Below are positions 1-16,059 of a stretch of 16,664 bases of DNA, piece after piece. The notes under the pieces were generated by a model. It was given only the letters and a program-made list of their open reading frames with translations. It did not search any database and was not told where the DNA came from. The stretch is from an archaeon (GTDB taxonomy: Archaea; EX4484-52; B79-G9), in NCBI GenBank assembly GCA_043813875.1, contig JBDRKP010000020.1, positions 1-16,664 on the forward strand, in the 5' to 3' direction. The position numbers and the translations under genes were made by a program. How positions within the stretch are numbered: position 1 is the stretch's first letter; each line of letters begins with the position of its first letter.

Positions 1-1026
1 ATGCCGGACGGATGGGAGGCGGACAACGGCCTGAACCCGCTTGACCCTAATGACGGCGCACTTGACAATGATGATGACGGGCTGACTAATGAAGATGAGT
101 TCAAGCACGGGACTGATCCCAATAACCCTGATACGGACGGCGACGGGGTGAATGACGGCGATGAGGTCGCGAACGGGACGGATCCGACCAGGCCGGGACC
201 GGACGATAAGATAAGCGGCGGAGGAAGCGTCGGCAGATTATCGGCGATAACATACGGCTCTGTCACTGAGATGATAAATCTTATCGTCGCTTCGGAGCCG
301 AAACTTGAGATAAGGACAATAGATGTGCCGAAGGTGATGATCGCCGGCGAGCAGGCAAAAATCGAGGCAGTGATAAAGAATAACGGAGATACGGCTTATG
401 ATGTGGAAGTGAGCGCAGATTTACTTGGCGTAACGAATTCTATCAGGAGAAATATAAATGCTGGCGATAAATACACGTACGTATTCGATGTCATGCCGAA
501 GAAAAGGGATGCTGGCTCACATACGGCCAAGTTCAAGGTGCAGTCCGGCTCAAAGGTCATCGAGAGAACGGTGGAGTTCACTGTCATGCTTAGCGCTGCC
601 CCTGAAGAAGAAAAGGGAAAGCTCATTGTAACCGGACTGGTCATCAATGTTTCTGATGCACGTGATTCTGTCACTATCGAGGGATGCATTGCAGATGATG
701 AGTTCAAGACACTTAAGGTGTATGTTGATGATATACTGAGGGATGAAATCGATACTGATGAGGATTACTGCTTTTCTGATGTCGTTTCTGTGGAGCTTGA
801 AGAAGGGGAGCACACTTTAAGGTTAAAGGGAGATGGAAAGGAGTACGTGAAGACGTTTGCTGCCGGGAAGAAGAAAGAGAATGGCGGCGGCGTGACGCCT
901 ACGGGATTTTCTTTCTTTAAGTATATTACTCTGGAGAGGATGTATTATCTGTTCATCATACTGGCCATAATCATCATATTTGCAAGAAGGCACTCGATGA
1001 GGAGAGCTATAGGGATTTCAAAGTAA
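1..1026 (+). CDS. Cell-surface protein, probably 5'-partial: Ca-binding TSP3-like DxDxDG repeats, CARDB/Ig-like domains and a C-terminal membrane anchor
   Basis: The N-terminal PDGWE..GLNPLDPND..DNDDDGLTNEDEFKHGTDPNNPDTDGDGVNDGDEVANGTDP is a typical bacterial TSP3-type repeat, and its Met is usually internal (DGDGMPDGWE). Beta-rich segments (AGEQAKIEAVIKNNGD) are CARDB-like. The protein ends with PTGF, a hydrophobic helix (YYLFIILAIIIIFA) and a basic tail (RRHSMRR). Confidence 0.8.
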   Translation: MPDGWEADNGLNPLDPNDGALDNDDDGLTNEDEFKHGTDPNNPDTDGDGVNDGDEVANGTDPTRPGPDDKISGGGSVGRLSAITYGSVTEMINLIVASEPKLEIRTIDVPKVMIAGEQAKIEAVIKNNGDTAYDVEVSADLLGVTNSIRRNINAGDKYTYVFDVMPKKRDAGSHTAKFKVQSGSKVIERTVEFTVMLSAAPEEEKGKLIVTGLVINVSDARDSVTIEGCIADDEFKTLKVYVDDILRDEIDTDEDYCFSDVVSVELEEGEHTLRLKGDGKEYVKTFAAGKKKENGGGVTPTGFSFFKYITLERMYYLFIILAIIIIFARRHSMRRAIGISK

Positions 1027-1111
1027 AGTGTGTTGTTTTAACTATCAGCCTATAGAAACCAATAATCTGCGAACATATCAAGATATAGTGATTATCCATC
1101 GTGTGTTCTCT

Positions 1112-2782
1112 TCACAATTTCACAATCAGGGTCTTTCCAAGCCCATGCCATCTTATACCATAGCCCATGTGCCCAAGCACCGGCTCGACAACATCAATAC
1201 CCTTCTCAAGGAATCTCTTTTTGAGATATTCACGGTCCATTTTAAGAGAAAATGCCTCATCAGCAACAGACCTTAATTCATCCATCTTTCCATGATCTAT
1301 CAGTCCTGCGCCCCTTATATAGATCCCGCCAGTCTTCTCAAGAACTATGTTCCTGCATTTTTCAAATTCATCGTCAGTAAAGCATCCAAGCCTATCCCTG
1401 AGCTTATCATCCGAAATAAATCCTATTGCTTTAAGCTCTCTTTGGATATCAACTGCGATATCTTCCTTTCCTTCCTTAAGCCAGTCAATCCTTTCATCAA
1501 AATCACTGAATCTCTCTTCAAGTATCCTCAAAACCGGCCCGTAGGGTATGTCCTTTCCCTTGAAATAGACCACGGGGTACCCTATATCCTCTATCTCTCT
1601 TTTGATCTCATCATCGTAGACACTGTTTGCGATGATTATCATCTGTATGTCCCCGCGGTCTTTGAGGCTCTTCAGCTTGTCGATCTTCTTTTTCTGGTAG
1701 TGTTCTGTGTAGTAGCCCATTACCTCGACATAGACTTTCGACTTGCTGCGAAAATAAACGAAATCGGGTATATATAAAAAATTTTCTGTGATTATCGGTT
1801 CCGGCTCTCTTTTTATGTCCCATGACTGCCTGTTCTCTGAAAAGAAACCATATAGCTTCTCCTCAGGCGCGCTGTCAAATCGCGGGGTCTCTTTTTCATT
1901 ACCGGCATCTCTTATCAGGCCGATGTTTCTCATTTCGCGCGAGCCCATTGAAAAATTCAGTTTCCTGTTTTTGATAAAAACAGCAGACCTGAAACTGAAA
2001 TCCTTATCTTTCATGCTATCGAATATCCTGAATGCCACCCTGCTTATATCGTGCCCGTATTTTTCCGGCTTTCCTGCCAATTCAAAAGGGCCTGTGATCT
2101 CAATCACATAATTATTGCCTGCGGTAATTGAAACATCACATAGCAGGCCGCCGTATTTACATAGGTGATATATCTTCCTGACCATGCTGCCGTCAAGTTC
2201 CGGGAGCATGATGTCTACATTCAGCGAGTTCAGAAAAATGGTCCCAAAAAGGCAGAGATTATATGTTTTCACTATATCTTCTTCTTTTGGCTCTCTTTTT
2301 TTACAGAGCCGCTTCTCTTCTTCCTGATCGAGCCACAGTGCCTCATCCAGTTCTGATTTTAAGCCATTCGCATCCCTGAATTCCAAAAGCGCCTCCTTTT
2401 TCAGAGGCGCAAAGCCGCTGTATTTCTGATTGACAAATCCGAATACTGCCCCACGCAATGTTTCAGGGGAGATGATGCCTTTTTTCTTCAGGGCAGCCGC
2501 ATCTTTGGGCAAGAAGATATCGCTAAAACCTAAAGACCCGAAAGAATAGAAATTGCCCATGACAGACATGATGCCTCTTGCAGTCTTAAGGTCACCAACA
2601 GCATCTGTCACTATGCGCTCATCGAAATCTGCTTTTTTTTTGCCAAGAAAACTATCGTAATATGCAATCACTTTTTTTAGCCTTTCTCTTGTTTGAGCAT
2701 CATCTGCAAGGAAAGAGACTACGATGTCCTCTCCTCTTCTTCTATATCTGAGCGCTGAAAGTGGTATCGAGAGGCTATTCAT
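1112..2782 (-). CDS. bax1: DUF790 family / Bax1-like endonuclease, partner of XPB2
   Basis: Carries the DUF790 C-terminal signature FDSAPEEKLY..W.IKREPEPI....YIPDF.......YVEVMGYYTEHYQKKKIDKL and an ITGPFELAGKPEKYG motif. It lies directly downstream of an XPB helicase. The start is more likely ATG 2782 (or 2788) than 2839, because ATGAATAG overlaps the XPB stop codon. Confidence 0.85.
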   Translation of the reverse strand: MNSLSIPLSALRYRRRGEDIVVSFLADDAQTRERLKKVIAYYDSFLGKKKADFDERIVTDAVGDLKTARGIMSVMGNFYSFGSLGFSDIFLPKDAAALKKKGIISPETLRGAVFGFVNQKYSGFAPLKKEALLEFRDANGLKSELDEALWLDQEEEKRLCKKREPKEEDIVKTYNLCLFGTIFLNSLNVDIMLPELDGSMVRKIYHLCKYGGLLCDVSITAGNNYVIEITGPFELAGKPEKYGHDISRVAFRIFDSMKDKDFSFRSAVFIKNRKLNFSMGSREMRNIGLIRDAGNEKETPRFDSAPEEKLYGFFSENRQSWDIKREPEPIITENFLYIPDFVYFRSKSKVYVEVMGYYTEHYQKKKIDKLKSLKDRGDIQMIIIANSVYDDEIKREIEDIGYPVVYFKGKDIPYGPVLRILEERFSDFDERIDWLKEGKEDIAVDIQRELKAIGFISDDKLRDRLGCFTDDEFEKCRNIVLEKTGGIYIRGAGLIDHGKMDELRSVADEAFSLKMDREYLKKRFLEKGIDVVEPVLGHMGYGIRWHGLGKTLIVKL

Positions 2783-4202
2783 TTTCATCCGTCCTGCTTT
2801 TGACTTTGAGTTTCCTGCGCCCTGATGCCTTTGCATCAACTGTCTTTTCGCTTACCAGCTCATAGAGTATGGCGGTCTCTTTTTTCGGCCGAAGGATGCG
2901 CCCGAGGCGCTGTATGTACTCGCGCTTGCTGCCGGTCCCGCTGATGATGATGCCGACTGACGCGTCAGGCACATTTATTCCCTCGTCAAGCACTTTTCCG
3001 CTTGCTATTTTTGAATATGTGCCGTCCCGGAAACATGAAAGGATTGTCTCTCTTTCCTTTTTTGCGGTTTTTGATGTGATGAGCGGTATGAGGTATTTTC
3101 TTGATATCTGATCGACGATCGATATGTACTCGGAAAATATGATGACCTTTTCGTTTTTATGTTTATTGAGCAGCTCAAGCACAACCCGGATTTTCTCTTC
3201 TGCATTGAAGGCGATCTTTCTTGCTTCCTTGTGCGCGATCAGCGCATCGTAAGCTGCCTTGCTCTGCCCTGACATCATGATGATACGGGAGTAGCTTTTT
3301 GGTCCCATGAACCTTATTTTTCCTGAGATAAGAAAATCCCTGAATATCTTCATGTTTTTTTCATATTTCTCTTTTTCATTATCATTCAGCCTGACATTGA
3401 TCTTTTCCAGCCTGAAGGATGCTATATAGCCCGATACATCATCGTGCCCTTTCCTGTATACGATGGGGCCGACCAGCTCGTCGAGATCATGATGGAGCTC
3501 ATCCGGTCTTTCGGGAGTTGCTGAGAGGCCGAGCCGGTATCTTGCGATAAGCCCGGTTGCGATTGTCCGGTATACTTCGCCTGGCAGGTGGTGCGCCTCG
3601 TCAAATACGACTAGATCGAATTTCGTCGCAAGCAGTCTCACGTACTTTTGAGCAGAGGCGTAAGTGATGATTGTCAGCGGCTTTATGTCGCGCTCCCCGC
3701 CACCGAATATGCCTATGTTTTGTTCTTCGATGCCCATGTTTTGAAGGACTGATGATTTCCACTGCGCAAGAAGGTCGATTGTCGGGACGACGACGAGCGT
3801 ATTGCATGAAAGGTGGCTTATCGCTATGAGCGCCTGCACGGTCTTGCCTGTGCCGGTCGGGAGGACGATGATGCCGCGCATGTTGTTTTTTAGCCAGCGC
3901 TTGTGAGCCTCTTCCTGGTATTTTCGCGGCTCTATGTTTAGGCGGGTTCTGAAGATGAGCTTGTTTACGTCTCTGAATCCGATTTGTGGGTTATCGTGAA
4001 GGAGCGCCTCTTTCACAGAAAAATAATGGATCGGCATGAGGCGGTATTTATGTTCCAGGCCCGTCCGGTATGCGGATGATTCCCTTACAAGAAGATGCTT
4101 TTTTTCGTCCGGCCTGACCGCTATGAGGTGGTTTATATGAAGTTCATGGTCTGATTCGACTGCGATATCATGACCTTTCTGGAATATTTTTACCTCTGCC
4201 AT
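2775..4202 (-). CDS. xpb2: Archaeal XPB2/Rad25-type SF2 DNA helicase
   Basis: Motifs PRKYQ, LPTGTGKT (Walker A), VVVPT, DEAHH, SATPER, VLDEGINVPDA and QRLGRILR are present. It is 475 aa with a short N-terminal domain and is coupled to the DUF790 gene. Confidence 0.9.
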   Translation of the reverse strand: MAEVKIFQKGHDIAVESDHELHINHLIAVRPDEKKHLLVRESSAYRTGLEHKYRLMPIHYFSVKEALLHDNPQIGFRDVNKLIFRTRLNIEPRKYQEEAHKRWLKNNMRGIIVLPTGTGKTVQALIAISHLSCNTLVVVPTIDLLAQWKSSVLQNMGIEEQNIGIFGGGERDIKPLTIITYASAQKYVRLLATKFDLVVFDEAHHLPGEVYRTIATGLIARYRLGLSATPERPDELHHDLDELVGPIVYRKGHDDVSGYIASFRLEKINVRLNDNEKEKYEKNMKIFRDFLISGKIRFMGPKSYSRIIMMSGQSKAAYDALIAHKEARKIAFNAEEKIRVVLELLNKHKNEKVIIFSEYISIVDQISRKYLIPLITSKTAKKERETILSCFRDGTYSKIASGKVLDEGINVPDASVGIIISGTGSKREYIQRLGRILRPKKETAILYELVSEKTVDAKASGRRKLKVKSRTDENE

Positions 4203-4245
4203 ATAATTCTATTTGGAAAGCAAAAATAAAAGCATAATACTGGAT

Positions 4246-4769
4246 TTATTCCAGATAAAGATTTGCTGAACTCATGAATGCATCTTCCGGTTTCCCGTGG
4301 AATTGACCGTCAGGGTAGACTGATAATTCATATTTCTCGTTGCTGTATGTATAAAAGGCATATCCCCATTGATCATTACTGTAATAGCGCAGCCTGCACA
4401 GGTGAGTCGGTGTATTTCTCAGCCGCTCAAGATACTCTTCTTTTGTCTCTGGCCAGCCTTTTACAGACCAGCTATCAGCGACTTCGGGTTCTGTATAGGC
4501 GTCAATGTATAGTCAAAGCCCTGATAAACCGTGTGCGTGGCTTTGCCATCTCCTCAAGGCACATTGGTTTTTTGTTGAAGTTTGCTCATTTATTTCATGC
4601 CTTGAGTATAGCAGAACTGGTTTTTGAAGCGGATGTCAATGCGTGTATATTTTCCTTTGAAGTGCTTTTCTGCAACGGCGAGTATCCGATTACGGATGTC
4701 ATCTTTTATGTGTTCCGGTATTTTCACACCGCTTGAACCCGGGCTATAGACCCAATATCCTCTTGGCAT
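4246..4769 (-). pseudogene. Conserved hypothetical gene (140 aa when restored) interrupted by a 101-bp insertion
   Basis: The 5' half from ATG 4769 (GAGGTGG SD upstream) reads MPRGYWVYSPGSSGVKIPEHIKDDIRNRILAVAEKHFKGKYTRIDIRFKNQFC. The 3' half reads IDAYTEPEV...ETKEEYLERLRNTPTHLCRLRYYSNDQWGYAFYTYSNEKYELSVYPDGQFHGKPEDAFMSSANLYLE* with TAA at 4246-4248. Removing 4510-4610 gives one 423-nt ORF with the junction TGC TAC ATT GAC (FCYID). Confidence 0.85.
4510..4608. mobile_element. 99-bp MITE with TA target-site duplication (IS630/Tc1-mariner-like insertion signature)
   Basis: TA flanks both sides (4508-4509 and 4609-4610). The imperfect TIRs are TAGTCAAAGCCCTG-ATAAA and, reverse-complemented, TACTCAAGGCATGAAATAAA, identical at 8 of the 10 terminal bases. 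Excising the element plus one TA restores the host reading frame. Confidence 0.75.
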
Positions 4770-4770
4770 A

Positions 4771-5376
4771 TCATTCCACCTCGTTAAACATATAAGATGT
4801 TTTAATCAGTTCTGCTGTTCTTTTGATATACTCCTCTAACCTGCCGTCATCATGTTTCTTTATGTCATCCAGAATATCAATGAATACACGATTGATGTCA
4901 GTATATAACTTCGATACCTCGATTTTATTCTTTAAATCCAAACCCTTATAGTTATCTGTCAGATTGCCGATAATTACAATCCCGATAAGATTTCCAAGAC
5001 TAATCAACGCCCACTTTTTATATGGTTCAATATCTTTATCGGGAGCATTACCCCCAAAAAGCAATGTTGCTCTTGCTGCAATAATCATTGAGTTGATGAT
5101 AATATCATTCATTTCCTCATCATCCTGATTCGCAAGAAATATACCAAACAGTTCCAAAGATAAGGATTTTGGAAATGATGCAGCATAAAGATTTAGTGCA
5201 TCTACGTAAATGCCATCCTTTTTCCCAACAAGGGATTTCAGATATTCATCATCCGGAGGCGCCTTATTCTCCAGCTTCTGTATTTGAAGCCGCAAATAGC
5301 ATTTGTTGCAGACATCCAATGTATGATATTCGCGATATTCATGCTCTGCCTTGTTGCAAAATGTGCACGCTTTCAT
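4771..5376 (-). CDS. Hypothetical protein with N-terminal CxxC...CxxC zinc-finger-like motif
   Basis: 201-aa ORF with CTFC(x15)CNKC at the N-terminus. It has a GGTGA SD upstream and abuts the next gene start. The rest looks helical and is AT-rich. Confidence 0.75.
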   Translation of the reverse strand: MKACTFCNKAEHEYREYHTLDVCNKCYLRLQIQKLENKAPPDDEYLKSLVGKKDGIYVDALNLYAASFPKSLSLELFGIFLANQDDEEMNDIIINSMIIAARATLLFGGNAPDKDIEPYKKWALISLGNLIGIVIIGNLTDNYKGLDLKNKIEVSKLYTDINRVFIDILDDIKKHDDGRLEEYIKRTAELIKTSYMFNEVE

Positions 5377-5406
5377 ATTATTATCACCTGCATTTGATGA
5401 ATTGTA

Positions 5407-5712
5407 TCATAATCTACCAAAAGCTTTGTCTTTCAGTCTCTTCATCTTCTCGTGAAGGGCTGTTAATACGATTATAGGTTCACTGTTTTTAGCTGGTTTC
5501 TTTTTCAGATCATCAATGCCAAACTCAATTGCCATCACAAGGCATTCGATATCCCAGCGATAGAGTCCGATAGGCCGTTTCCCCTGGTATTTCTCAATTC
5601 TGCGGTCCAGTCCAAATGATTCTTCCATTGCCCATGTAAGCTTTTTTAATTCTGTAAGTTCTGCTCCCTCTATGAGCACTTCATATTTTATTTCTCTTGA
5701 ACCTATTTTCAT
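5407..5712 (-). CDS. Small conserved hypothetical protein (101 aa)
   Basis: The start at ATG 5712 (MKIGSREIKY) avoids overlap with the SEC-C gene. The core ELKKLTWAMEESFGLDRRIEKYQGKRPIGLYRWDIECL is protein-like. Confidence 0.7.
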   Translation of the reverse strand: MKIGSREIKYEVLIEGAELTELKKLTWAMEESFGLDRRIEKYQGKRPIGLYRWDIECLVMAIEFGIDDLKKKPAKNSEPIIVLTALHEKMKRLKDKAFGRL

Positions 5713-5758
5713 GCATATAGCACCATTTTTTGTATTAGGAATCAAATCATGATGGCTA

Positions 5759-6355
5759 TTAATCGAAGTTATGTGAGGAATGCATGTCAAACATTGCGCA
5801 ATATTCGTTCCTGTTGGTAAGGCAGGCGGTAGGGCATATTGTACATGCATCTAGGAGTTGTTTCCATGCGCAGATTGAGGATTCGAGGAGTTTTTCGATC
5901 ATCTTATAATCAAGATATGGGAAGAAGGAGATGATTATTTCGTCTGAAATGTAGGGTTCTTTTATCCTGCCGCCCAATGTCTGCAAAATGATTATCTTAA
6001 TCTTTTTTGAGAGATATATTGAAAATCCTGCAAGCTGAATGTTTGATATTGCATATTTTTTCAATTGTTCTGGATGGTCTTTTTTTATCTGATCATAAAA
6101 TGCCATCGCAACTTCATAACAATGCCAGTTGAGCAGTATTTTGTCATCTTTTGATGAATAGAATGATGATGGCTTTATAATCGCGATCGCTGGCCTGTCG
6201 TCATAAAGGCCACCTGCCTGCCCGGCGAATCTGCTACGCTGTTGAGAGGATAATGGTTCTGTGTTGAGCGAGGGCTCTATTTCTTTTTGGAGGCAGCATT
6301 TCTTGTATTTTTTCCCGGATCCGCAAGGACACGGATCATTTCGGCCTGTTGTCAT
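5759..6355 (-). CDS. SEC-C motif-containing protein with a C-terminal Cys cluster
   Basis: The N-terminal [18 protein letters not shown] is a canonical SEC-C Zn motif. The C-terminus carries [12 protein letters not shown]. Confidence 0.85.
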
Positions 6356-6418
6356 TATGTATATGTTTGTTTGTTGTTTTTTTATGTTTTTGTTTTTGCA
6401 CTGTCTTTCTTTATTTTT

Positions 6419-8125
6419 TTATACGGATTCTTTAAAATCGTCTTCAATATCATACTTGTAGCCGCGCTCGGTCAGGAATAGCTGACGGTTGGCTGAGAAG
6501 TCCTGGTCTCTTGTGTCGCGGGTGACAATAGTATAGAAGTGCGCGATGGACTTATCTTTTTTGGGGCGCAGTATCCTACCGAGACGCTGGGCTTCTTCTT
6601 GTCTTGAGCCGAATGTCCCGGAGACCTGCACAAGGACGTTTGCTTCCGGGAGGTCGATTGCGAAATTCGCCACTTTCGAGACTACCATGAGCTTTATCTC
6701 TCCTGACCTGAATTTGTCGTAGAGTATTTTTCTCTCTTTGTTGGATGTGATGCCTGTTAGTATGGGTGCATCGAAAATTTCTGCAAGTTGCTTGAGCTGG
6801 TCAAGGTACATGCCTACGACAAGGATGCGATCATTGCGCTTTGTGTGGTAGTCAACGATTTTTTTTGCGAGGTCATATTTGTTCGGGTTTTCGGCTGCGA
6901 TACGGTATTTGGACCGATGCTGCGCTGTTGCATAGATCATCCTGTGCTCATCTGGCATAGGTATTCTTATTTCTGTGCATTTCGCTTCCGCGATCCATGC
7001 CTGCTTCTCGAGTTCTTTCCATTGGGCGTCGTATTTCTTTGGGCCTATGAGGGAGAATACATTTTTTTCAAGGCCGTCTTCTCTTATGAGTGTGGCAGTG
7101 AGACCCACGCGGCGGGTAGCCTGGAGTTCTGCTGTTATGCGGAATACGGGTGCGGGCAGAAGATGTACTTCATCATAGATTATGAGGCCCCATTCCCGGG
7201 AATTGAATAAGGTGAAGTGTGGGAATTCTATCTCTTCGCTGCCGCTGGCATCTTTGTTCTTTTTCCTGTAGACGAGTATCTGGTATGTCGCAATTGTGAC
7301 GGGTTTTATCTCCTTTATTTCGCCGCTGTATTCGCCGATTGTGTCTTTTGTGATGGTTGTCTTGTCTATGAGTTCGTCGGCCCATTGCCTTGCAGCGGTG
7401 ATGTTTGTGGTTATTATGAGGGTGTTGCATTTTAGCTTTTGCATGATGCCCATGCCGACGATTGTTTTTCCTGCACCGCAGGGGAGGACGATTGTACCGG
7501 AACCACCGCGCACATCGCCGTCGGCGTAAAATGAATTTATTGCGTTTTTTTGATAGTCGCGCACTTCAAATGGAATGCCGTTTTTTGTTATGTCGAGTAA
7601 ATCGACGGGCATGAATTCGCCGGTGATATAGCCTGCAAGGTCCTCTACCGGGAAACCGATTTCGGTTAGAGCCTGCTTGATATGGCCTCTGAGTTCTGGC
7701 CTGACTTCGAGTGTATGCTGATCTATTGGACGGAGTATGAAGCGCTCCAGTTTTTTTATGTTCATTAGTTCGGTTATCAGTATGGAGTCTTCGCTTTTCA
7801 GGATCATTTGTGTGTCTTCTTTCAGGAGTTTGAGGGAGCCGTATCTTGAGACGTAGTCGATTATGTCTGCCTTGACATTGGGGGGGACGTCGTATTTGCT
7901 GTAGGTCTCAAGAGATGTGATGATGGATTCCGCGTTCATTCCTGAAGCGGCTGCATTCCAAAGGGACAGGTTTGTGATCCTGTAGCTGTGGATATGTTCC
8001 GGGCTTTTGATTAGTTCTGCAAATCGCGATATCATGTTTCTTGCGTCATCGTGGAGGGGGTTGTTTACTTCAAGAAGTATGGATTTATCTCCCTGTACGA
8101 TGAGCGGGTTTTGAGGGTTATACAT
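6419..8125 (-). CDS. xpb: Bacterial-type DNA repair helicase XPB (ERCC3/Rad25 family) with N-terminal Helicase_C_3 domain
   Basis: The N-terminus is PLIVQGDKSILLEV...FAELIKSPEHIHSYRITNLSLWNAAASG. Helicase motifs LPCGAGKT, DEVHLLPA, TATLIREDG (intact RED motif), SKVANFAIDLPEANV and GSRQEEAQRLGRILR are present. Confidence 0.95.
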   Translation of the reverse strand: MYNPQNPLIVQGDKSILLEVNNPLHDDARNMISRFAELIKSPEHIHSYRITNLSLWNAAASGMNAESIITSLETYSKYDVPPNVKADIIDYVSRYGSLKLLKEDTQMILKSEDSILITELMNIKKLERFILRPIDQHTLEVRPELRGHIKQALTEIGFPVEDLAGYITGEFMPVDLLDITKNGIPFEVRDYQKNAINSFYADGDVRGGSGTIVLPCGAGKTIVGMGIMQKLKCNTLIITTNITAARQWADELIDKTTITKDTIGEYSGEIKEIKPVTIATYQILVYRKKNKDASGSEEIEFPHFTLFNSREWGLIIYDEVHLLPAPVFRITAELQATRRVGLTATLIREDGLEKNVFSLIGPKKYDAQWKELEKQAWIAEAKCTEIRIPMPDEHRMIYATAQHRSKYRIAAENPNKYDLAKKIVDYHTKRNDRILVVGMYLDQLKQLAEIFDAPILTGITSNKERKILYDKFRSGEIKLMVVSKVANFAIDLPEANVLVQVSGTFGSRQEEAQRLGRILRPKKDKSIAHFYTIVTRDTRDQDFSANRQLFLTERGYKYDIEDDFKESV

Positions 8126-8307
8126 AAATTTAGTGAGTATGTTAAATATTTATTTATTGCGGTTCTGTTTCTGGTGATGCAGGGAGTGCATAACTTAATA
8201 TGCCTGCTGAGCCAGAATCCTGCAATATGGCAGCTAAAACGATGTCATCCAACTGATTTTGTTACGGATGCACTGAACTCTCTTAATTTCGCTGCAATGC
8301 GGGGTGA

Positions 8308-10449
8308 TTACTCTTTCTTTATCCCGTAACCTTTTTTTTGCAGCAGTTTGTATATCGCATCCATGCTTGATTTATCTTTTACCATGATTATCTTCTGGCT
8401 GTCTTTTGATGACGAGAATTCTTTTAGCTCTTTCATTACAGCCCTGTCAGCCAGTATTTCCTGTGCCAGTATCGGGTCGCTGAAAACAAGGCATCCTGCG
8501 CATTCTTTCATGCCGATCTCGCCGTATCTTGATGAAGCGCTGTCCACAAGTGTTTTTACGGTTGAAGGCAGCGGCTTGCCCGAGTGTTTTTCAAGATATC
8601 CTGTTATCTTTTCGCGGCCGAAGCCTTCGGATACGGATCTCATTACTGATTCTTTTGATATATGGTATATGCAGTACCGGTCTATTTTCTTCGGGTATGC
8701 AAATCCTGATATTTTTGATAATGTTTCAAGGCCGGCATCAAGGCTGACCATTATCTCGTTGTTGGGCTGTATGATGATGCGGATTTCTTTTTGCCTGGCG
8801 ACGTTTTTTTCATGGGTTCTGATGCCTGTTTTTCCCGGCCCTGAAAGCCGCACGTGGGTTATCAGGCCTGGACATGCGGGCTTTACTATCTCAAGGACCC
8901 CGGCATGGAGGAGATCGCGGTATATTTGATCAAGGACGTCTTTTGGATATTTTGTGTCAAGCGTGTTCTTTCCTGACTCTTGTTGTTCTTCCCATATTCT
9001 CATTATCGCTTTAAAGTTCCTGTCCATCCCAAGGTATGCCAGGAATTGAGCAGTGTCAATCCATGCATCTGTTTTTTTCTGCTTTTTCGATAATCCTGTT
9101 AATGCCGATAAGGCGATGTCCAGGAGATTGTTTTCCTTTATTATAATCTGCCTCTGTGATGAATACTGGTAAGCGGTTCTTATCGTTGCGATGCATCTTT
9201 CCTGTATTTCGGATGCAATTGGATTTCCGTCAAATAATGCGATTGCTTTACTGGCGATGGCAGGGATTTTGGATTGCAGGTATTCGCTCCATTTTTCTGT
9301 TGTCCAGCTGTTTTTTGTGCCGAGCATGAAAAAGAAGTTTGCCTTATCGCTGTCAAAGCCGGTAAGTTCTGATATCAGGGAACATGATTTATTCGAGAGG
9401 GTGCCGTTTTTGTTGAGCCTCATTTCCGGTGAGGATATGGCTGCAAGGAATTTGCGGATGTCTTCAACTATGTCAGTGGGTTTCTGTGCGCCTGGCAATC
9501 CGGTGTGCGCGTACATGGCTGATTCGATCTTGTTTCTTGTCCGCTTCAGTTCCTCGAGGTATTCTTTTGACGCGGCATCATACATTTCTTCCGGGATTGA
9601 CACGTGGGTTTTATAGGCATGGTTATCGTAAATGAGCATCAGGAACCCGGTGAGGAATAGCTTTTTTACATCGCTTTTCTCTGTGCAGCTGCTGTTATAG
9701 CGGCCTATGATATTGCTTGTTCTGATGTAATCGTAGCTCCATGAGTATCTCCTTTCATTCATATCTGGATCGAGGGGGTATTTGCTGAATAACTGGTGAA
9801 CTTCGATGCGGTTATCTTTTTCAAGGACAAGGCGCAGTATTTTCTTCTGTTCTTTCGTGAGCCCATCGTATATTTTATTTTTGTTTTCCACCATGTATTT
9901 ATAGGCCATTGCGGCGCAGTATGTCTTTGAATACGTGGTTTCAAATGACTGGCGATATGTGTTGTTTATATGGGCGAGAACGGCCTTTATTTCCTCGCTG
10001 GAATAGCTCCAGATCCATCTGAGCAGCGTGTCCTCGCCTGCGCTGAATTTGCGGATACATTCGCCGCTGCCCAGAACAAAGAAGTATTCCAATGGCAATA
10101 TGAGTTTGCCGCTGCTTCTGAAGAGGATGCCGAGGTTTTCTAATGCTGCCGCCTCATTCGAGTATGACTGGATGCGCTCGTTATTGTCCGGGATTTCGCC
10201 GCCGTTTGTGTACATATAACCGAGCAGTTCCATGAGATTATCCCGGCTGCTTATCTGATAGAAGAGATCCTTTATCTTGTGTGCATTTGACAGCTCACGG
10301 TATACTTTTTCTGAAAGCGGCATGATTTTTTTCTTTTCGTTTGCAGTGTATGCCATGTTTCTGCATTCAAAAAGAAGCCTTAATTTTTTGTCGGGCGATC
10401 TTTTTAATAGCTCATACATTGTGTATGTTGTATTCGGTTTTTGTGTCAT
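8308..10449 (-). CDS. Helicase-associated domain (Helicase_C_3) protein, probable XPB partner, p52/Tfb2-like
   Basis: The C-terminal IIIQPNNEIMV...ISGFA...DRYCIYHISKESVMRSVSEG...ITGYLEKHSGKPLPSTVKTLVDSASSRYG parallels the N-terminal domain of the adjacent XPB. There are no Walker motifs. A GAGGTGG SD is present, and the gene lies directly upstream of xpb. Confidence 0.85.
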   Translation of the reverse strand: MTQKPNTTYTMYELLKRSPDKKLRLLFECRNMAYTANEKKKIMPLSEKVYRELSNAHKIKDLFYQISSRDNLMELLGYMYTNGGEIPDNNERIQSYSNEAAALENLGILFRSSGKLILPLEYFFVLGSGECIRKFSAGEDTLLRWIWSYSSEEIKAVLAHINNTYRQSFETTYSKTYCAAMAYKYMVENKNKIYDGLTKEQKKILRLVLEKDNRIEVHQLFSKYPLDPDMNERRYSWSYDYIRTSNIIGRYNSSCTEKSDVKKLFLTGFLMLIYDNHAYKTHVSIPEEMYDAASKEYLEELKRTRNKIESAMYAHTGLPGAQKPTDIVEDIRKFLAAISSPEMRLNKNGTLSNKSCSLISELTGFDSDKANFFFMLGTKNSWTTEKWSEYLQSKIPAIASKAIALFDGNPIASEIQERCIATIRTAYQYSSQRQIIIKENNLLDIALSALTGLSKKQKKTDAWIDTAQFLAYLGMDRNFKAIMRIWEEQQESGKNTLDTKYPKDVLDQIYRDLLHAGVLEIVKPACPGLITHVRLSGPGKTGIRTHEKNVARQKEIRIIIQPNNEIMVSLDAGLETLSKISGFAYPKKIDRYCIYHISKESVMRSVSEGFGREKITGYLEKHSGKPLPSTVKTLVDSASSRYGEIGMKECAGCLVFSDPILAQEILADRAVMKELKEFSSSKDSQKIIMVKDKSSMDAIYKLLQKKGYGIKKE

Positions 10450-11451: not shown

Positions 11452-12183
11452 TCACAGGCTTGTGATGCCTGCACTGTTTTTCCTGAGCCATTCGTGCTTG
11501 TCTTTATAGTCAGGCATAACATCCCCGACCAGTGACCAGAATTTTTCCGAGTGATTGAATTCGACAAGATGGGCTAGCTCATGGATGCATATGTACTCCA
11601 GAACGTCTTCGGGAGCAAAGAGCAACCGCGCGGAGATGTTGAGGTTGCCTTTTTTTGAGCAGCTGCCCCATCTTGATCTGGTGTTCTTGAAATATATTTT
11701 GTTTATGCGCTTTTGGAAGTGTTTATCATTCAGTTCATGTATTTTTTGTTCCAGTTTGGAGAGCCTCTTTTTTGCGATGAGCCTCAGGAGGAGGGATGAG
11801 ATGTGGTCATTTGCCTTTTTTTCAGGCAGGTTCGATGATAAAGAAAAGCAGATGTCATTGCCTTCTATCCATGCTGAGCTGCTTTCCTTGTCTTTGAATG
11901 AGATGTTCAGCCTGTATTCCTCGTCACCGGCTTTTATTATCTGGCCGTGCTTGTATTCTTTTTTTGGTTCTGGCCTGAATTTATCCTTGTTTTCGATCAG
12001 TTTCTTTAGTGCCCAGTTTTTCATGCGGATTTTTTCCCTGAATCGCTCTTCCCTGTCCATGGAGGAGGGTATGCGTATGTTGATGGCAGTTCTCCCGATG
12101 GAGACTCTTGAGTTGTTCCTTTTTTCATAATGGACCCTTACAAGATAGGTTCTGCCGTTGACGTCTATTTTTTCTGTTTCCAT
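11452..12183 (-). CDS. YgjP-like / DUF45 metal-dependent hydrolase (M48/SprT-like HExxH protein)
   Basis: Motifs RSRWGSCSKKGNLNIS.RL..AP..VLEY..IHELAHLVEFNHSEKFWSLV...MPDYK are present. Confidence 0.9.
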   Translation of the reverse strand: METEKIDVNGRTYLVRVHYEKRNNSRVSIGRTAINIRIPSSMDREERFREKIRMKNWALKKLIENKDKFRPEPKKEYKHGQIIKAGDEEYRLNISFKDKESSSAWIEGNDICFSLSSNLPEKKANDHISSLLLRLIAKKRLSKLEQKIHELNDKHFQKRINKIYFKNTRSRWGSCSKKGNLNISARLLFAPEDVLEYICIHELAHLVEFNHSEKFWSLVGDVMPDYKDKHEWLRKNSAGITSL

Positions 12184-12267
12184 GTTATGCGCCTTAAAAA
12201 TCTTGAAATATTGATGCTATCGGAGGATTTCAAGCTTTTTAATTGCCAGTATATACTTTATGCGCAA

Positions 12268-12987
12268 TTAAAAATCCCAGTATATTTCGTCGCTTTTGCA
12301 TTTCGAGCAGCGCGCAGCTGTCAGGATCTCTTTTTTTCCGCCGCATAGATGCCCGTAATTCTCTATGCCGTATTTCTTTTTCATGATGCGCTCTATCTCT
12401 TTTTCAATAAGCATATTTTCCGAGGGTATGTTTACTTCAAAAAAGCGTTTTACTATGTTTTTTCTGGTGTTGCAGTTCAGGCATCTGGCTGGCCCGAAGC
12501 CGTCAAAGCCGTCAGGCATTTCTATTTTGTCTGCATCAATTTTGCGGATTTCAATTTCCGGCATGAAGCCTTTGTTTGAGAGTTCGATGTCTTTGATGCA
12601 AAGAAAATCCATGGCATTGTTTTTTAGCTCTTTTTCCCTGTGGGCGTACCATTTTTCCATGAGTTTGGAATCTTTGCTGATTAATTCCCTGAAGCGATTG
12701 AGTGGCTTCGGTCCGAATAGGATGGATACAAGTGTTTTTGATTTCGGCGGAGGCAGGCCGGATTCAAATAATAGTATGTCTCCAATATCCTCTTTTGGAT
12801 TTCTTACGGGTATAGGGATGAAGTTGTCGCTGTCGTTTTTCATCTTTTCGAGTTCGAGGTCTGAACCGGCGCCTCGAGAGCTGATGTGGATTATTGCATT
12901 GTTTTTTATGTCAATAAAATAATGCATCTCATTGGAGGCAAATTCAAAAGCAGTCATAATCTCGTCAAATCCAATGTTCAGTTTCAT
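12268..12987 (-). CDS. UPF0158 family protein with C-terminal CxxC...CxxC extension
   Basis: The pattern AFE...EMHYFID.....I...FIPIP...GPKPLNRFRELI...KWYAHRE fits UPF0158. CLNC and CSKC occur in the tail. A GAGGAGGT SD is present. Confidence 0.7.
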   Translation of the reverse strand: MKLNIGFDEIMTAFEFASNEMHYFIDIKNNAIIHISSRGAGSDLELEKMKNDSDNFIPIPVRNPKEDIGDILLFESGLPPPKSKTLVSILFGPKPLNRFRELISKDSKLMEKWYAHREKELKNNAMDFLCIKDIELSNKGFMPEIEIRKIDADKIEMPDGFDGFGPARCLNCNTRKNIVKRFFEVNIPSENMLIEKEIERIMKKKYGIENYGHLCGGKKEILTAARCSKCKSDEIYWDF

Positions 12988-14739: not shown

Positions 14740-16059
14740 GGGTCTGTAAAAAAATAACTCACAAACTATATATGTACAATGCGACCATATAACATAGTAT
14801 GATTACTTCAGATAAAATTGATATGGTTTGTAAAAAATATTTTCTATTGATGCCGAATTTAAATGAATGTACTCGTCGCCAATGGGCTGCAACTGAAGCA
14901 TTGGCACTGGGTCATGGCGGCATAACCGCAGTGCATAAGGCAACGGGTATTGCCTTAAGCACAATCTGCATTGGATTAAACGAATTAAAAGATACGTCAT
15001 ATGTACTTGGAAATACAATCCCTGGCCATAAACGCGTCCGCAAAAAAGGAGGGGGACGCAAGAAAATATCAGATTATAATCCTGAGTTGATATCTGCTTT
15101 AGATTCACTCGTTGAACCGCATACGCGTGGAGATCCGATGTCTCCACTACGATGGACATGTAAAAGTACGCGAAATCTGGCAAATGAATTGCTTCAACAA
15201 AAATACCGTGTCAGTCATTCTACTGTTGCAAATATACTTCACGAACAAAAATATAGCCTAAAATCAAATAGAAAAACAGATGAAGGAAAATCGCATCCGG
15301 ATCGCAATGCTCAATTTGAATACATTAGCACGAAAGTAAAATCGTTCAATGAAAAAAGGCAACCATCATTATCTGTAGACACAAAAAAGAAAGAACTTAT
15401 CGGAAATTTCAAAAACAACGGAACAGAATGGTTGCCTAAAGGCATATCAACAAACGTCAAGGTATATGATTTTCCTGAAAAGGACGTTGGCAAAGCAGCA
15501 CCATATGGCGTATATGACATTTTGCAAAACAATGGATTTGTGAATGTAGGAATAAGTAACGATACCGCGGCTTTCGCTGTTGAAAGCATACGTCAATGGT
15601 GGTATCAAATAGGTAAACAATCCTATCCGGATGCGAAAGAAATTTTGATTACAGCTGATTGTGGTGGAAGCAATGGATATAGAGTACGATTATGGAAATT
15701 AGAATTACAAAAATTTGCTGATGAACTCGGATTGCCGATATCTGTATCCCATTTTCCTCCAGGAACCAGCAAATGGAATAAGATTGAACACCGTCTTTTT
15801 TCGTTCATCACAAAAAATTGGCGAGGCAAGCCACTCACGGATTATGTTACAATTGTCGAACTTATCGCTGCAACAAAAACGAACAAGGGATTAAAAGTTT
15901 GTTGTAGACTCGACAAAAAGAGCTATCCGAAAGGTATTAAAATTTCAGATGAAGAATTGAATAAAATTAAAATCAAATCGGATGAATTTCATGGGGATTG
16001 GAACTATACGATTATGCCACGAAATATAGAGAGTTTATGAGTTATTTATTTACACTGAC
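14740..16059 (+). mobile_element. ISAzo13-family insertion sequence (1320 bp)
   Basis: The TIRs are GGGTCTGTAAAAAAATAACTCA (left) and, reverse-complemented, GTCAGTGTAAATAAATAACTCA (right), with a 16/17 inner core. A 3-bp TTA duplication lies at 14737-14739 and 16060-16062. Confidence 0.85.
14799..16040 (+). CDS. ISAzo13-family DDE transposase
   Basis: Motifs LNE..RR.WAA.EA..LGHGGI, R..GGGRK, RGDPMSPLRWTCKS, HPDRNAQF, SVDTKKKEL.GNFKN, ITADCGGSNG, HFPPGTSKWNKIEHRLFS and FHGDWNY are present in an intact ORF. Confidence 0.95.
   Translation: MITSDKIDMVCKKYFLLMPNLNECTRRQWAATEALALGHGGITAVHKATGIALSTICIGLNELKDTSYVLGNTIPGHKRVRKKGGGRKKISDYNPELISALDSLVEPHTRGDPMSPLRWTCKSTRNLANELLQQKYRVSHSTVANILHEQKYSLKSNRKTDEGKSHPDRNAQFEYISTKVKSFNEKRQPSLSVDTKKKELIGNFKNNGTEWLPKGISTNVKVYDFPEKDVGKAAPYGVYDILQNNGFVNVGISNDTAAFAVESIRQWWYQIGKQSYPDAKEILITADCGGSNGYRVRLWKLELQKFADELGLPISVSHFPPGTSKWNKIEHRLFSFITKNWRGKPLTDYVTIVELIAATKTNKGLKVCCRLDKKSYPKGIKISDEELNKIKIKSDEFHGDWNYTIMPRNIESL

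What the first reader, a model, noticed from the sequence alone, without database searches (positions are those of the whole stretch)
1112..10449. Dual-XPB cluster: bacterial-type XPB with a p52/Tfb2-like partner co-located with an archaeal XPB2-Bax1 helicase-nuclease pair
Seen: eight co-oriented genes in the order helicase-associated protein, XPB, SEC-C protein, hypothetical, Zn-finger hypothetical, MITE-split gene, XPB2, DUF790. Established: XPB2-Bax1 is an archaeal bubble-opening and incision complex; bacterial XPBs are often next to a Helicase_C_3 protein; eukaryotic TFIIH XPB pairs with p52 through homologous domains. Inference: both modules in one locus may form a single DNA-opening and incision system, either a TFIIH/NER-like repair module or an anti-MGE defence system given the IS/MITE-rich setting. 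This is the best candidate for an undescribed system in the window.
Basis: partly seen in the sequence, partly recalled or inferred. Interest (0 to 1): 0.8.

Follow-up and report, generated by a model that had tools for sequence, protein, structure and literature searches.

The report
Two adjacent XPB helicase gene modules
An archaeal genome carries two DNA-helicase gene pairs side by side, one XPB with a partner that resembles the eukaryotic TFIIH subunit p52 and one XPB with the nuclease Bax1, but their adjacency looks like a local accident and not a shared machine.

Summary
One of them is a small gene split by a ~105-bp MITE-like repeat.

The 475-aa helicase plus DUF790 protein is an archaeal XPB-Bax1 pair, with the nuclease motifs intact.

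The 568-aa helicase is a full XPB (NF045503, 839 bits). Its 713-aa neighbour is p52-like. In the PDB its best structural relatives are XPB's N-terminal region and TFIIH p52, and its profile reaches the Tfb2 clutch. This XPB-partner pairing is widespread: 49 of 80 XPB loci have such a partner.

The "single dual-XPB system" reading is not supported.
- 0 of 80 XPB loci carry Bax1.
- 0 of 15 genomes of another archaeal phylum that hold both families have them on one contig.
- Within the genus, the XPB2-Bax1 block occurs without the XPB module and in other contexts.
- No defence-system model matched beyond generic helicase similarity.

Best reading: two independent modules juxtaposed in a variable region. 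The p52-like partner is the interesting part.

The parts
8308..10449 (-). p52-like partner of XPB (713 aa). It has an N-terminal extension, a winged-helix array (about residues 190-550), a clutch-like Helicase_C_3 domain (about 552-644) and a C-terminal domain (645-713).
   Evidence: PF13625 scores 53.6 bits at residues 558-672. The AF2 model has pLDDT 89.5 and pTM 0.82. Foldseek's top PDB hits are p52 chains, e.g. 6trs_B at E 2.1e-6. VIA-align: model 552-712 against human XPB 70-293 gives Z 13.3-15.1, and model 191-644 against p52 42-400 gives Z 12.8-14.4. The profile of its family hits the yeast TFB2 clutch at E 5e-6.
6419..8125 (-). Full-length XPB helicase (568 aa) with the Helicase_C_3 N-terminal domain.
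   Evidence: NF045503 equivalog scores 838.9 bits against a cut-off of 610. PF13625 scores 120 bits at residues 8-134, with ResIII and ERCC3_RAD25_C also present. Walker A (GAGKT), DEVH and RED are invariant in an 18-sequence alignment.
5759..6355 (-). SEC-C-motif protein (198 aa); the rest of the protein has no family.
   Evidence: PF02810 scores 42.5 bits at residues 5-22. There is no homologue beyond the motif in relatives' loci or in the 80 XPB loci.
5407..5712 (-). Small conserved hypothetical protein. The ORF extends to 5850, but the conserved 101-aa core starts at M47.
   Evidence: It is 69-71% identical to genes upstream of XPB2-Bax1 in G003 (L013:735-1043) and G002 (L015:7022-6726). 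It has no Pfam family.
4771..5376 (-). Hypothetical protein (201 aa) with an N-terminal CxxC...CxxC pattern.
   Evidence: Translation. No family found. No homologue in relatives' loci.
4247..4768 (-). Small gene (orthologues 142-147 aa) disrupted by a MITE-like insert. The two halves are in different frames.
   Evidence: The intact G003 orthologue aligns over residues 1-54 to 4769-4608 and over residues 48-140 to 4527-4252. The frames are shown. No Pfam family. The nearest Atlas clusters are unnamed bacterial proteins, with DUF3024 only at 0.82.
4508..4612 (.). MITE-like repeat of about 105 bp inserted in the small gene.
   Evidence: blastn of 4480-4650 against the genome found 17 further hits of 56-119 nt (75-95% identity) on 16 other contigs.
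2775..4202 (-). Short archaeal-type XPB (XPB2-like, 475 aa).
   Evidence: phmmer against the PDB: A. fulgidus XPB (6p66_A) at 340 bits, E 1.7e-100, and S. tokodaii XPBII at 337 bits. It is 71-72% identical to the helicase next to Bax1 in G002, G003 and G006. NF045503 gives only 240 bits, below the 610 cut-off.
1112..2839 (-). Bax1/DUF790 nuclease. The ORF is 575 aa. The likely start is the ATG at 2782, which overlaps the XPB2 stop by 8 bp.
   Evidence: PF05626 scores 171.2 bits. S. tokodaii Bax1 (6p4o_B) matches at E 1.3e-23, with the FDS..EE, PDF and VEV/IxG motifs aligned. These residues are invariant among 5 Bax1 proteins of the phylum.

Best explanation
The locus holds two separate helicase modules that lie next to each other in a variable, repeat-bearing part of an archaeal genome.

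Module 1 (8308-10449 and 6419-8125) is a full-length XPB with a partner protein that is a prokaryotic counterpart of TFIIH p52. The partner has a winged-helix array followed by a 'clutch' domain homologous to XPB's own N-terminal domain. By analogy with XPB-p52, I infer that the clutch pairs with the XPB N-terminal domain and tethers or regulates the ATPase. The substrate and pathway are unknown.

Module 2 (2775-4202 and 1112-2839) is an archaeal XPB-Bax1 pair. By homology, the helicase opens or tracks a DNA fork or bubble and the VRR-Nuc-like nuclease domain of Bax1 cuts one arm.

The genes in between are small proteins of unknown function. Two of them travel with XPB2-Bax1 in this genus.

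The adjacency of the two modules is specific to this lineage and is most likely the result of gene gain or rearrangement. It is not likely to be a conserved two-helicase machine.

Shown here: domain content, fold similarity, gene-neighbourhood statistics.
Inferred: binding, activities, separate transcription.
For: Identity of the parts.

p52-likeness of the partner:
- The AF2 model has pLDDT 89.5.
- Foldseek against the PDB gives 24 hits at E<=1e-3, all listed as TFIIH entries, with p52 chains on top.
- The Foldseek-independent scan of 48,161 chains gives only 5 chains at Z>=8. Three are human XPB (Z 13.3, 159 aligned, rmsd 4.0), p52 6trs_B (Z 11.1, 232 aligned, rmsd 10.2) and the p52 N-terminal half 6tru_B (Z 8.2, 167 aligned, rmsd 4.4). 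The other two are MarR-type winged-helix regulators.
- The family profile hits XPB's N-terminal domain (E 5e-7), the yeast TFB2 clutch (E 5e-6) and human p52 (E 0.03).
- The XPB NTD-p52 clutch pseudo-symmetric dimer is established (PMC6422496, passages read).

Predicted complex of XPB 1-180 with partner 530-713:
- Verdict: weak support. Score 0.49, best control 0.02.
- The mark was reached by 116 of 157 solved complexes and 2 of 215 mismatched pairs. At 0.60 or under it was reached by only 18 of the 157 solved complexes and by both mismatches that passed.
- The runs agree in at least 96% of contacts, and the partner's pLDDT is at least 76.
- A like complex (XPB-p52) has been solved, so the pass may be from memory.

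The XPB-partner pairing is general. 49 of 80 XPB loci from bacteria and archaea carry a protein with the partner's C-terminal domain, 47 of them within 5 kb, nearly all co-oriented.

Independence of the two modules:
- 0 of 80 XPB loci (flanks up to 10 kb) hold a Bax1.
- In a 401-genome sample of another archaeal phylum, PF13625 is in 25 genomes and DUF790 in 222. 15 genomes hold both, and in 0 of 15 are they on the same contig.
- In the window's own phylum, PF13625 is in 2 of 42 genomes and DUF790 in 5 of 41.
- G002 and G006 (same genus) have XPB2-Bax1 but no PF13625 match.
- G003 has both, but on two contigs and with another gene order: XPB, then 474-aa and 627-aa proteins, then the partner.
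- Genes downstream of Bax1 in G006 have their 84-85% identical G000 counterparts on contig C18, not in the window.
Against: - All eight genes are co-oriented and tightly spaced, with gaps of 2-182 bp. That is what an operon would look like.
- The two genomes of this phylum that have the XPB/p52-like module (G000, G003) both also have XPB2-Bax1. This is 2 of 2, from closely related genomes.
- If placement were random in a 1.64-Mb genome, two modules 2.2 kb apart would be rare. That estimate is my own, not a tool result.
- 'Different contigs' in fragmented MAGs does not prove distance.
- The Bax1 detector for the 80 loci was my own 5-sequence HMM, not Pfam.
- Binding of the partner to XPB has only weak predicted support, and no expression data exist.
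- The p52 match outside the clutch rests on tandem winged-helix domains, a common fold. Generic MarR-type hits reach Z about 8.
Confidence: 0.68

Rival explanations
1. In this lineage the two modules have been joined into one working unit. The p52-like/XPB pair opens DNA and XPB2-Bax1 verifies and cuts, co-transcribed as one operon. This would be a lineage-specific TFIIH/NER-like machine.
For: Eight co-oriented genes with short gaps. Both modules co-occur in G000 and G003, the only 2 of 42 genomes of the phylum with PF13625.
Against: - The adjacency was not seen in 0 of 80 XPB loci or in 0 of 15 genomes holding both families.
- In G003 the modules are on separate contigs with a different gene order.
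- XPB2-Bax1 stands alone in G002 and G006.
- AT-rich TATA-like stretches sit about 20-30 bp upstream of both helicase start codons. This is read from the sequence and their function is inferred.
- The genome also has UvrA (1448 bits) and Hef, so NER does not depend on this locus.
Confidence: 0.12
2. The region is an anti-mobile-element defence island. One or both helicase modules act on invading DNA and not on damaged host DNA.
For: - Patchy distribution of both modules in the phylum.
- Variable genomic context within the genus.
- A MITE and an IS in the window.
- XPB-type helicase cores resemble PbeA (183.6 bits for the 475-aa protein) and Dnd-associated restriction helicases.
- A YgjP-like peptidase lies nearby.
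Against: - PADLOC has no model matching the p52-like protein, Bax1 or the small genes. The PbeA and Cas3 hits cover only the generic SF2 core.
- No close XPB or Bax1 relatives on viral contigs.
- No restriction, methylase, CRISPR or abortive-infection genes in the window.
- DUF790 is in 222 of 401 genomes of another phylum, i.e. near-core there.
Confidence: 0.1
3. The adjacency is an assembly artefact: the metagenome contig joins two places of the genome.
For: - The window is a MAG contig.
- The XPB to SEC-C spacer (6356-6418) is A-rich, low-complexity sequence.
- No independent contig in four public runs bridges it.
- The genome is rich in a 105-bp repeat.
Against: - The two halves of the split gene flank the MITE in the right order and orientation, so the contig is continuous there.
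- The small gene on the XPB side of the MITE (5407-5712) belongs to the block that accompanies XPB2-Bax1 in G002 and G003. This leaves only the 5713-6418 stretch as a possible false join.
- Pieces identical to both modules occur in the same runs, though these may be the source sample.
Confidence: 0.05

Closest known systems
Archaeal XPB-Bax1 helicase-nuclease complex (A. fulgidus, S. tokodaii; PDB 6P66, 6P4F, 6P4O)
   Same: Adjacent, overlapping genes for a short XPB and a DUF790 protein. The XPB scores 340 bits against AfXPB. Bax1 aligns to StBax1 at E 1.3e-23 with the three acidic nuclease motifs kept (residues E275/D305/E318 of AfBax1 from PMC7293015, passages read).
   Different: - Bax1 is divergent: 138 and 104 bits against NCBIfam equivalogs with cut-offs of 500. 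Only 8 relatives at 47-55% identity were found in a 5.8-billion-protein search.
- The helicase RED motif reads RPD here, RAD in G002 and G003, and RPD in G006.
- In three relatives an Exo_endo_phos gene sits directly upstream. It is missing in the window.
Eukaryotic TFIIH XPB-p52(-p8) submodule (PDB 6NMI, 6TRS)
   Same: XPB with a Helicase_C_3 N-terminal domain, plus a partner whose clutch domain has the same fold. The partner's winged-helix array is colinear with p52 residues 42-400. The profile hits the TFB2/p52 clutch. The predicted NTD-clutch complex has weak support: 0.49 against control 0.02.
   Different: - No Pfam Tfb2 match at E<=0.01.
- The partner has an extra ~190-residue N-terminus.
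- The partner's last ~70 residues align with XPB's DRD-like region and not with the p8-binding domain of p52.
- No p8, p34, p44, p62 or XPD genes are in the locus.
- The gene pair is prokaryotic and spread across bacteria and archaea.
Bacterial XPB (e.g. Mycobacterium tuberculosis XPB) with its neighbouring large 'conserved hypothetical' gene
   Same: Same NF045503 XPB family, 51-65% identical over the 80 loci. Mycobacterial loci have a 747-812-aa co-oriented upstream protein with the same C-terminal domain (L086, L091-L093, L096). M. tuberculosis XPB is a 3'-5' helicase (PMC3353954, abstract seen).
   Different: The partner is only about 20-30% identical, and only in its C-terminal ~160 residues. 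That the M. tuberculosis neighbour is Rv0862c is recalled. The six papers that name it (listing only) do not appear to describe a function.
PbeA and Dnd-associated restriction helicases (PADLOC PDLC02707; TIGR04095)
   Same: They share the XPB-like SF2 helicase core: 183.6 bits for the 475-aa protein and 83 bits for the 568-aa protein. TIGR04095 gives 134 and 59 bits.
   Different: TIGR04095's cut-off is 600 bits. The matches cover the helicase core only. No other Pbe or Dnd components are in the window.

Membership tests
XPB helicase (NCBIfam NF045503 equivalog) | Whole-protein score over the curated cut-off of 610 bits | tested here: met
   The 568-aa protein scores 838.9 bits. The 475-aa protein scores 240.1 bits, so it is not met for that one.
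XPB helicase | Walker A, DExH and RED motifs | tested here: met
   In the 568-aa protein, GAGKT, DEVH and RED are invariant in 18 sequences. The 475-aa protein has GTGKT and DEAH, but RPD in place of RED.
Archaeal XPB-Bax1 pair | DUF790 (PF05626) protein over the gathering score | tested here: met
   171.2 bits against a cut-off of 28.8.
Archaeal XPB-Bax1 pair | NCBIfam Bax1 equivalog cut-offs (500 bits) | tested here: not met
   138.4 bits (EndNBax1SULTO) and 103.5 bits (EndNBax1ARCFU). It is a divergent member of the DUF790 family, not an equivalog of either characterised protein.
Archaeal XPB-Bax1 pair | Three acidic nuclease motifs of the VRR-Nuc-like domain | tested here: met
   FDSAPEE, PDF and VEVMG align with StBax1 and are invariant in 5 sequences. 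Equating them with AfBax1 E275/D305/E318 is by motif pattern (PMC7293015).
Archaeal XPB-Bax1 pair | Bax1 gene adjacent to a short XPB gene | tested here: met
   XPB2's stop is at 2775. The Bax1 ORF starts at 2839, or 2782 by comparison with relatives. The same pairing is seen in G002, G003, G006 and G022.
Archaeal XPB-Bax1 pair | Physical XPB-Bax1 heterodimer and bubble incision | not testable with these tools
TFIIH p52/Tfb2 | Pfam Tfb2 (PF03849) sequence match | tested here: not met
   No Tfb2 family was listed at E<=0.01 for the 713-aa protein. I therefore call it p52-like and do not file it as a member of the Pfam family.
TFIIH p52/Tfb2 | Clutch domain with the fold of the XPB N-terminal domain | tested here: met
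   PF13625 scores 53.6 bits. Model 552-712 against XPB 70-293 gives Z 13.3-15.1, rmsd 3.6-4.0, 152-159 aligned. The profile hits the TFB2 clutch at E 5e-6 and human p52 at E 0.026-0.029.
TFIIH p52/Tfb2 | Winged-helix array N-terminal of the clutch, colinear with p52 | tested here: met
   Model 191-644 against p52 42-400 gives Z 12.8-14.4 with about 325 aligned (rmsd about 20, flexible domains). Model 304-546 against the p52 N-terminal half gives Z 8.2-8.3, 158-167 aligned, rmsd 4.1-4.4. Caveat: single winged-helix regulators also reach Z about 8.
TFIIH p52/Tfb2 | C-terminal p8-binding domain and a p8 partner | tested here: inconclusive
   Residues 645-713 align with XPB's region up to residue 293 and not with p52 beyond residue 400. 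I did not search for a p8-like gene.
TFIIH p52/Tfb2 | Binds the XPB N-terminal domain | tested here: inconclusive
   Complex prediction gave weak support: 0.49, best control 0.02. The pass may be from memory of solved XPB-p52.
   0 of 80 XPB loci have Bax1. 0 of 15 genomes holding both families have them on one contig. In the genus, G002 and G006 have only XPB2-Bax1, and G003 has both on separate contigs.
Known anti-phage defence systems (PADLOC-DB 2.0) | System-specific protein models matched | tested here: not met
   Only helicase-core matches (PbeA, mREase_IV, Cas3, Dpd) and the SEC-C motif. There were 0 families for the p52-like protein, Bax1 and the small genes.

The most novel reading that the evidence does not exclude
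Prokaryotic XPB works with a true homologue of TFIIH p52: a winged-helix array plus a clutch that pairs with the XPB N-terminal domain. This would be a two-subunit 'proto-TFIIH' module that moves between bacteria and archaea and predates the eukaryotic complex. My evidence does not exclude that in this archaeon the module also cooperates with the neighbouring XPB2-Bax1 pair, but I put that extra step at only about 0.1.
Probability: 0.5. Interest if true: 0.7.

Novelty: new variant of a known kind. Interest (0 to 1): 0.5.

Why it matters
The function of XPB outside eukaryotes is still called elusive in a 2026 review (PMC13024598, passages read). Its large neighbouring gene has no described role in the papers I could search.

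If that neighbour is a p52 homologue, two things follow. The XPB-p52 pairing at the heart of TFIIH is older than eukaryotes. It could also be studied in simple two-protein bacterial or archaeal systems.

The report also removes a tempting but unsupported idea, that two XPB modules form one repair or defence machine.

Tried and rejected
- The search of earlier findings was not open.
- phmmer of the 713-aa protein against PDB sequences gave only chance hits (best E 0.29). The link to p52 needed the profile and the fold.
- A word-based search for its relatives found 3 proteins.
- The first genome-contig scan, with the single XPB protein, found nothing. The alignment-based scan worked.
- The metagenome scan with the Bax1 alignment gave 2 loci. 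One is a 15,917-bp contig, the same length as G003's, with the match at the same place.
- No RNA holder was listed. The laid runs gave only 150-400-nt contigs, and none bridged a gene junction.
- GC content does not set either module apart. The genome is 0.438 and the genes range from 0.37 to 0.48.
- No overlap was found between the ends of G003 contigs C47 and C14.
- Viral contigs: 29 loci with only distant helicase cores (23-37% identity, matches starting at query residue 172 or later), and no Bax1 relative.
- The small genes of the window do not recur in the 80 XPB loci.
- Long XPB ORFs in L078 and L090 showed no partner-XPB fusion.
- The listing of cluster members could not be made. The Bax1 word search that followed could not tell whether a second assembly, a 14,429-bp contig with 99% variants of XPB and its partner, also carries Bax1.
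- Trees of the two XPBs to test co-transfer were not built. Only two genomes of the phylum hold both modules, so there is no power.
- Defence-gene enrichment around homologues was not measured.
- PubMed Central supplements were not consulted.

Full report
**What is there.** The window is one whole 16,664-bp contig (C20) of a 1.64-Mb archaeal MAG, with 90 contigs and 91.5% completeness. The rRNA operon is archaeal. Between 1112 and 10449 all long ORFs lie on the minus strand. In reading order they are:
- a 713-aa protein with a C-terminal Helicase_C_3 domain
- a 568-aa XPB
- a 198-aa SEC-C-motif protein
- a small conserved protein (core 101 aa)
- a 201-aa protein with an N-terminal CxxC...CxxC pattern
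- a small gene broken into two frames
- a 475-aa XPB-type helicase
- a 575-aa DUF790 protein

The broken gene is split by a ~105-bp element. This element has 17 further copies or partial copies on 16 other contigs of the genome. Both PF13625 matches and the only DUF790 match of the genome are in this window.

**Module 2, XPB2-Bax1.** The 475-aa helicase matches A. fulgidus XPB at 340 bits and S. tokodaii XPBII at 337 bits. The DUF790 protein matches S. tokodaii Bax1 at E 1.3e-23. The FDS..EE, PDF and VExxG motifs are aligned and are invariant among five Bax1 proteins of the phylum. These correspond by pattern to the three acidic residues of the VRR-Nuc-like site described for AfBax1 (PMC7293015, passages read). 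The two genes overlap, and the same pair occurs in G002, G003, G006 and G022.

The pair is divergent:
- It falls below both NCBIfam Bax1 equivalog cut-offs.
- Only eight relatives at 47-55% identity were found.
- The helicase RED motif reads RPD.

**Module 1, XPB plus a p52-like partner.** The 568-aa protein passes the XPB equivalog model (838.9 bits, cut-off 610). It belongs to a very conserved clade. It is 64-67% identical to ANME-1/Methanophagales and other Halobacteriota proteins, and 60-63% identical to Chloroflexota, Ignavibacteriales and deltaproteobacterial ones.

Its 713-aa neighbour has few full-length relatives: 274 representatives at E<=1e-3 but only 8 at E<=1e-30 among 1.84 billion proteins. 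A 52-sequence alignment gave a confident model, with pLDDT 89.5 and pTM 0.82.

Fold and profile evidence for p52-likeness:
- In Foldseek against the PDB, the 24 hits at E<=1e-3 are all TFIIH entries, led by p52 chains (6trs_B at E 2.1e-6).
- VIA-align places model 552-712 on human XPB 70-293 (Z 13.3-15.1, rmsd 3.6-4.0).
- VIA-align places model 191-644 on p52 42-400 (Z 12.8-14.4, about 325 aligned). The rmsd is large, as expected for a flexible multi-domain chain.
- A scan of 48,161 representative chains that does not lean on Foldseek found only five chains at Z>=8. Three of them are XPB, p52 and the N-terminal half of p52.
- A profile of the family reaches XPB's N-terminal domain (E 5e-7), the yeast TFB2 clutch (E 5e-6) and human p52 (E about 0.03).
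- Pfam's Tfb2 model does not match, so I call the protein p52-like and do not file it as a Tfb2 family member.

In TFIIH the XPB N-terminal domain and the p52 clutch form a pseudo-symmetric dimer (PMC6422496, passages read). A predicted complex of XPB 1-180 with partner 530-713 gave weak support:
- Score 0.49, best control 0.02.
- The mark was reached by 116 of 157 solved complexes and 2 of 215 mismatches. At 0.60 or under it was reached by only 18 of the 157 solved complexes and by both mismatches that passed.
- The runs agree in at least 96% of contacts, and the partner's pLDDT is at least 76.
- A like complex has been solved, so the pass may be from memory.

**The pairing is general.** Among 80 XPB loci from bacteria and a few archaea (600 candidate stretches, best 80 kept), 49 carry a protein with the partner's C-terminal domain. 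In 47 of them it lies within 5 kb, and nearly all are co-oriented. It is upstream in Actinomycetota and downstream in Chloroflexota and others. In Chloroflexota and in G003, one or two further large genes sit between XPB and the partner. The G003 627-aa protein has a faint Helicase_C_3 signal (E 0.099).

**Are the two modules one system?** The evidence says no.
- None of the 80 XPB loci holds a Bax1 relative within flanks of up to 10 kb. This used my own HMM from five Bax1 sequences, which recovered all five training sequences.
- In a 401-genome sample of the phylum of a Methanophagales MAG, PF13625 is in 25 genomes and DUF790 in 222. 15 genomes have both, and in none of the 15 do the two lie on the same contig. 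Several of these contigs extend more than 18 kb on one side.
- In the window's own small phylum, PF13625 occurs in 2 of 42 genomes and DUF790 in 5 of 41.
- In the same genus, G002 and G006 have XPB2-Bax1 and no PF13625 match.
- G003 has both, but on contigs C47 and C14. Its gene order is XPB, 474 aa, 627 aa, partner. Its flanking genes have G000 counterparts on other contigs.
- Genes downstream of Bax1 in G006 are 84-85% identical to genes on G000 contig C18. So the XPB2-Bax1 block itself sits in different places within the genus.
- What does travel with XPB2-Bax1 in G002 and G003 is the small 101-aa gene, a 168-186-aa gene, the intact version of the split gene, and an Exo_endo_phos gene. G006 also has the Exo_endo_phos gene. 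It is missing in the window.
- The SEC-C protein and the 201-aa protein have no counterparts there or in the 80 XPB loci.

**Points that keep the joint reading alive.** The eight genes are co-oriented with gaps of 2-182 bp. The only two genomes of the phylum with module 1 also have module 2. I give that reading about 0.12.

**Defence reading.** PADLOC matched only generic helicase cores (PbeA at 183.6 bits for the 475-aa protein) and the SEC-C motif. It matched nothing for the p52-like protein, Bax1 or the small genes. Viral contigs hold only distant helicase cores and no Bax1 relative. The setting is repeat-rich: a MITE, and an ISAzo13-type transposase with 29-nt inverted repeats. I give defence about 0.1.

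**Assembly.** The halves of the split gene flank the MITE in order, so the contig is continuous there. The A-rich spacer at 6356-6418 is not bridged by any independent contig I could lay. A false join is unlikely but not excluded.

**Context.** The genome also encodes UvrA (1448 bits) and Hef.

**Literature.** Searches for XPB with Helicase_C_3, Rv0862c, DUF790 with defense, XPB/p52/clutch/bacterial, XPB/p52/prokaryotic origin, XPB/helicase-associated and Tfb2/XPB/archaea/bacteria found no description of a prokaryotic p52 homologue or of a dual-XPB system. The library lacks most subscription journals, so this is not proof that none exists.

**Verdict.** The genes are real and correctly read. 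The locus is best seen as two independent modules side by side.

Noticed in passing
window 4508-4612: A ~105-bp MITE-like repeat family with 17 further full or partial copies on 16 other contigs of the genome. Here it interrupts a small gene.
   Followed up: partly
window 14745-16054: An ISAzo13-type DDE transposase gene (PF07592, 478.8 bits) flanked by 29-nt inverted repeats at 14745-14773 and 16026-16054 (86% complementary). Parts of it are at high depth in public groundwater runs.
   Followed up: no
window 2775-4202; L013, L014, L015: The XPB 'RED' motif reads RPD in the window's short XPB and in G006, and RAD in G002 and G003. A. fulgidus XPB has RED at the aligned place.
   Followed up: partly
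L012 (G003:C47) 560-7809: In a congener the long XPB heads a four-gene row: XPB, a 474-aa protein, a 627-aa protein with a faint Helicase_C_3 signal (E 0.099), and the 726-aa partner. The two middle genes have no homologue in the window's genome.
   Followed up: partly
L013:2381-3304, L014:9057-10079, L015:4633-5648: A membrane-anchored Exo_endo_phos family gene sits directly upstream of XPB2-Bax1 in three congeners. It is frameshifted in G002. It is absent from the window.
   Followed up: partly
window 5407-5712 and 4247-4768; L013:735-2247; L015:5688-7022: Two small genes (about 101 aa and 142-147 aa) accompany XPB2-Bax1 in G002, G003 and the window. Their nearest language-model clusters are unnamed bacterial proteins, and DUF3024 appears only as a weak lead (0.82).
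   Followed up: partly
window 6290-6343: The stretch coding the SEC-C motif is matched by many unrelated metagenome contigs that diverge on both sides (loose ends at 6293/6294 and 6331-6340 in all four runs). It is a conserved motif and not a repeat of this genome.
   Followed up: no
G000:C14:39695-42439 and G000:C5:12034-14256: The genome encodes a full UvrA (1448 bits) and a Hef helicase-nuclease (about 911 bits in one frame), so other excision or fork-repair routes are present.
   Followed up: no
window 11452-12987: A YgjP-like metallopeptidase (135.6 bits) and a UPF0158 protein lie just upstream of the cluster on the same strand. Their relation to it is unknown.
   Followed up: no
L011 3088-3202: The tRNA match in the 16S-23S spacer spans 115 nt for a 71-position model, which suggests a tRNA gene with an intron.
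   Followed up: no
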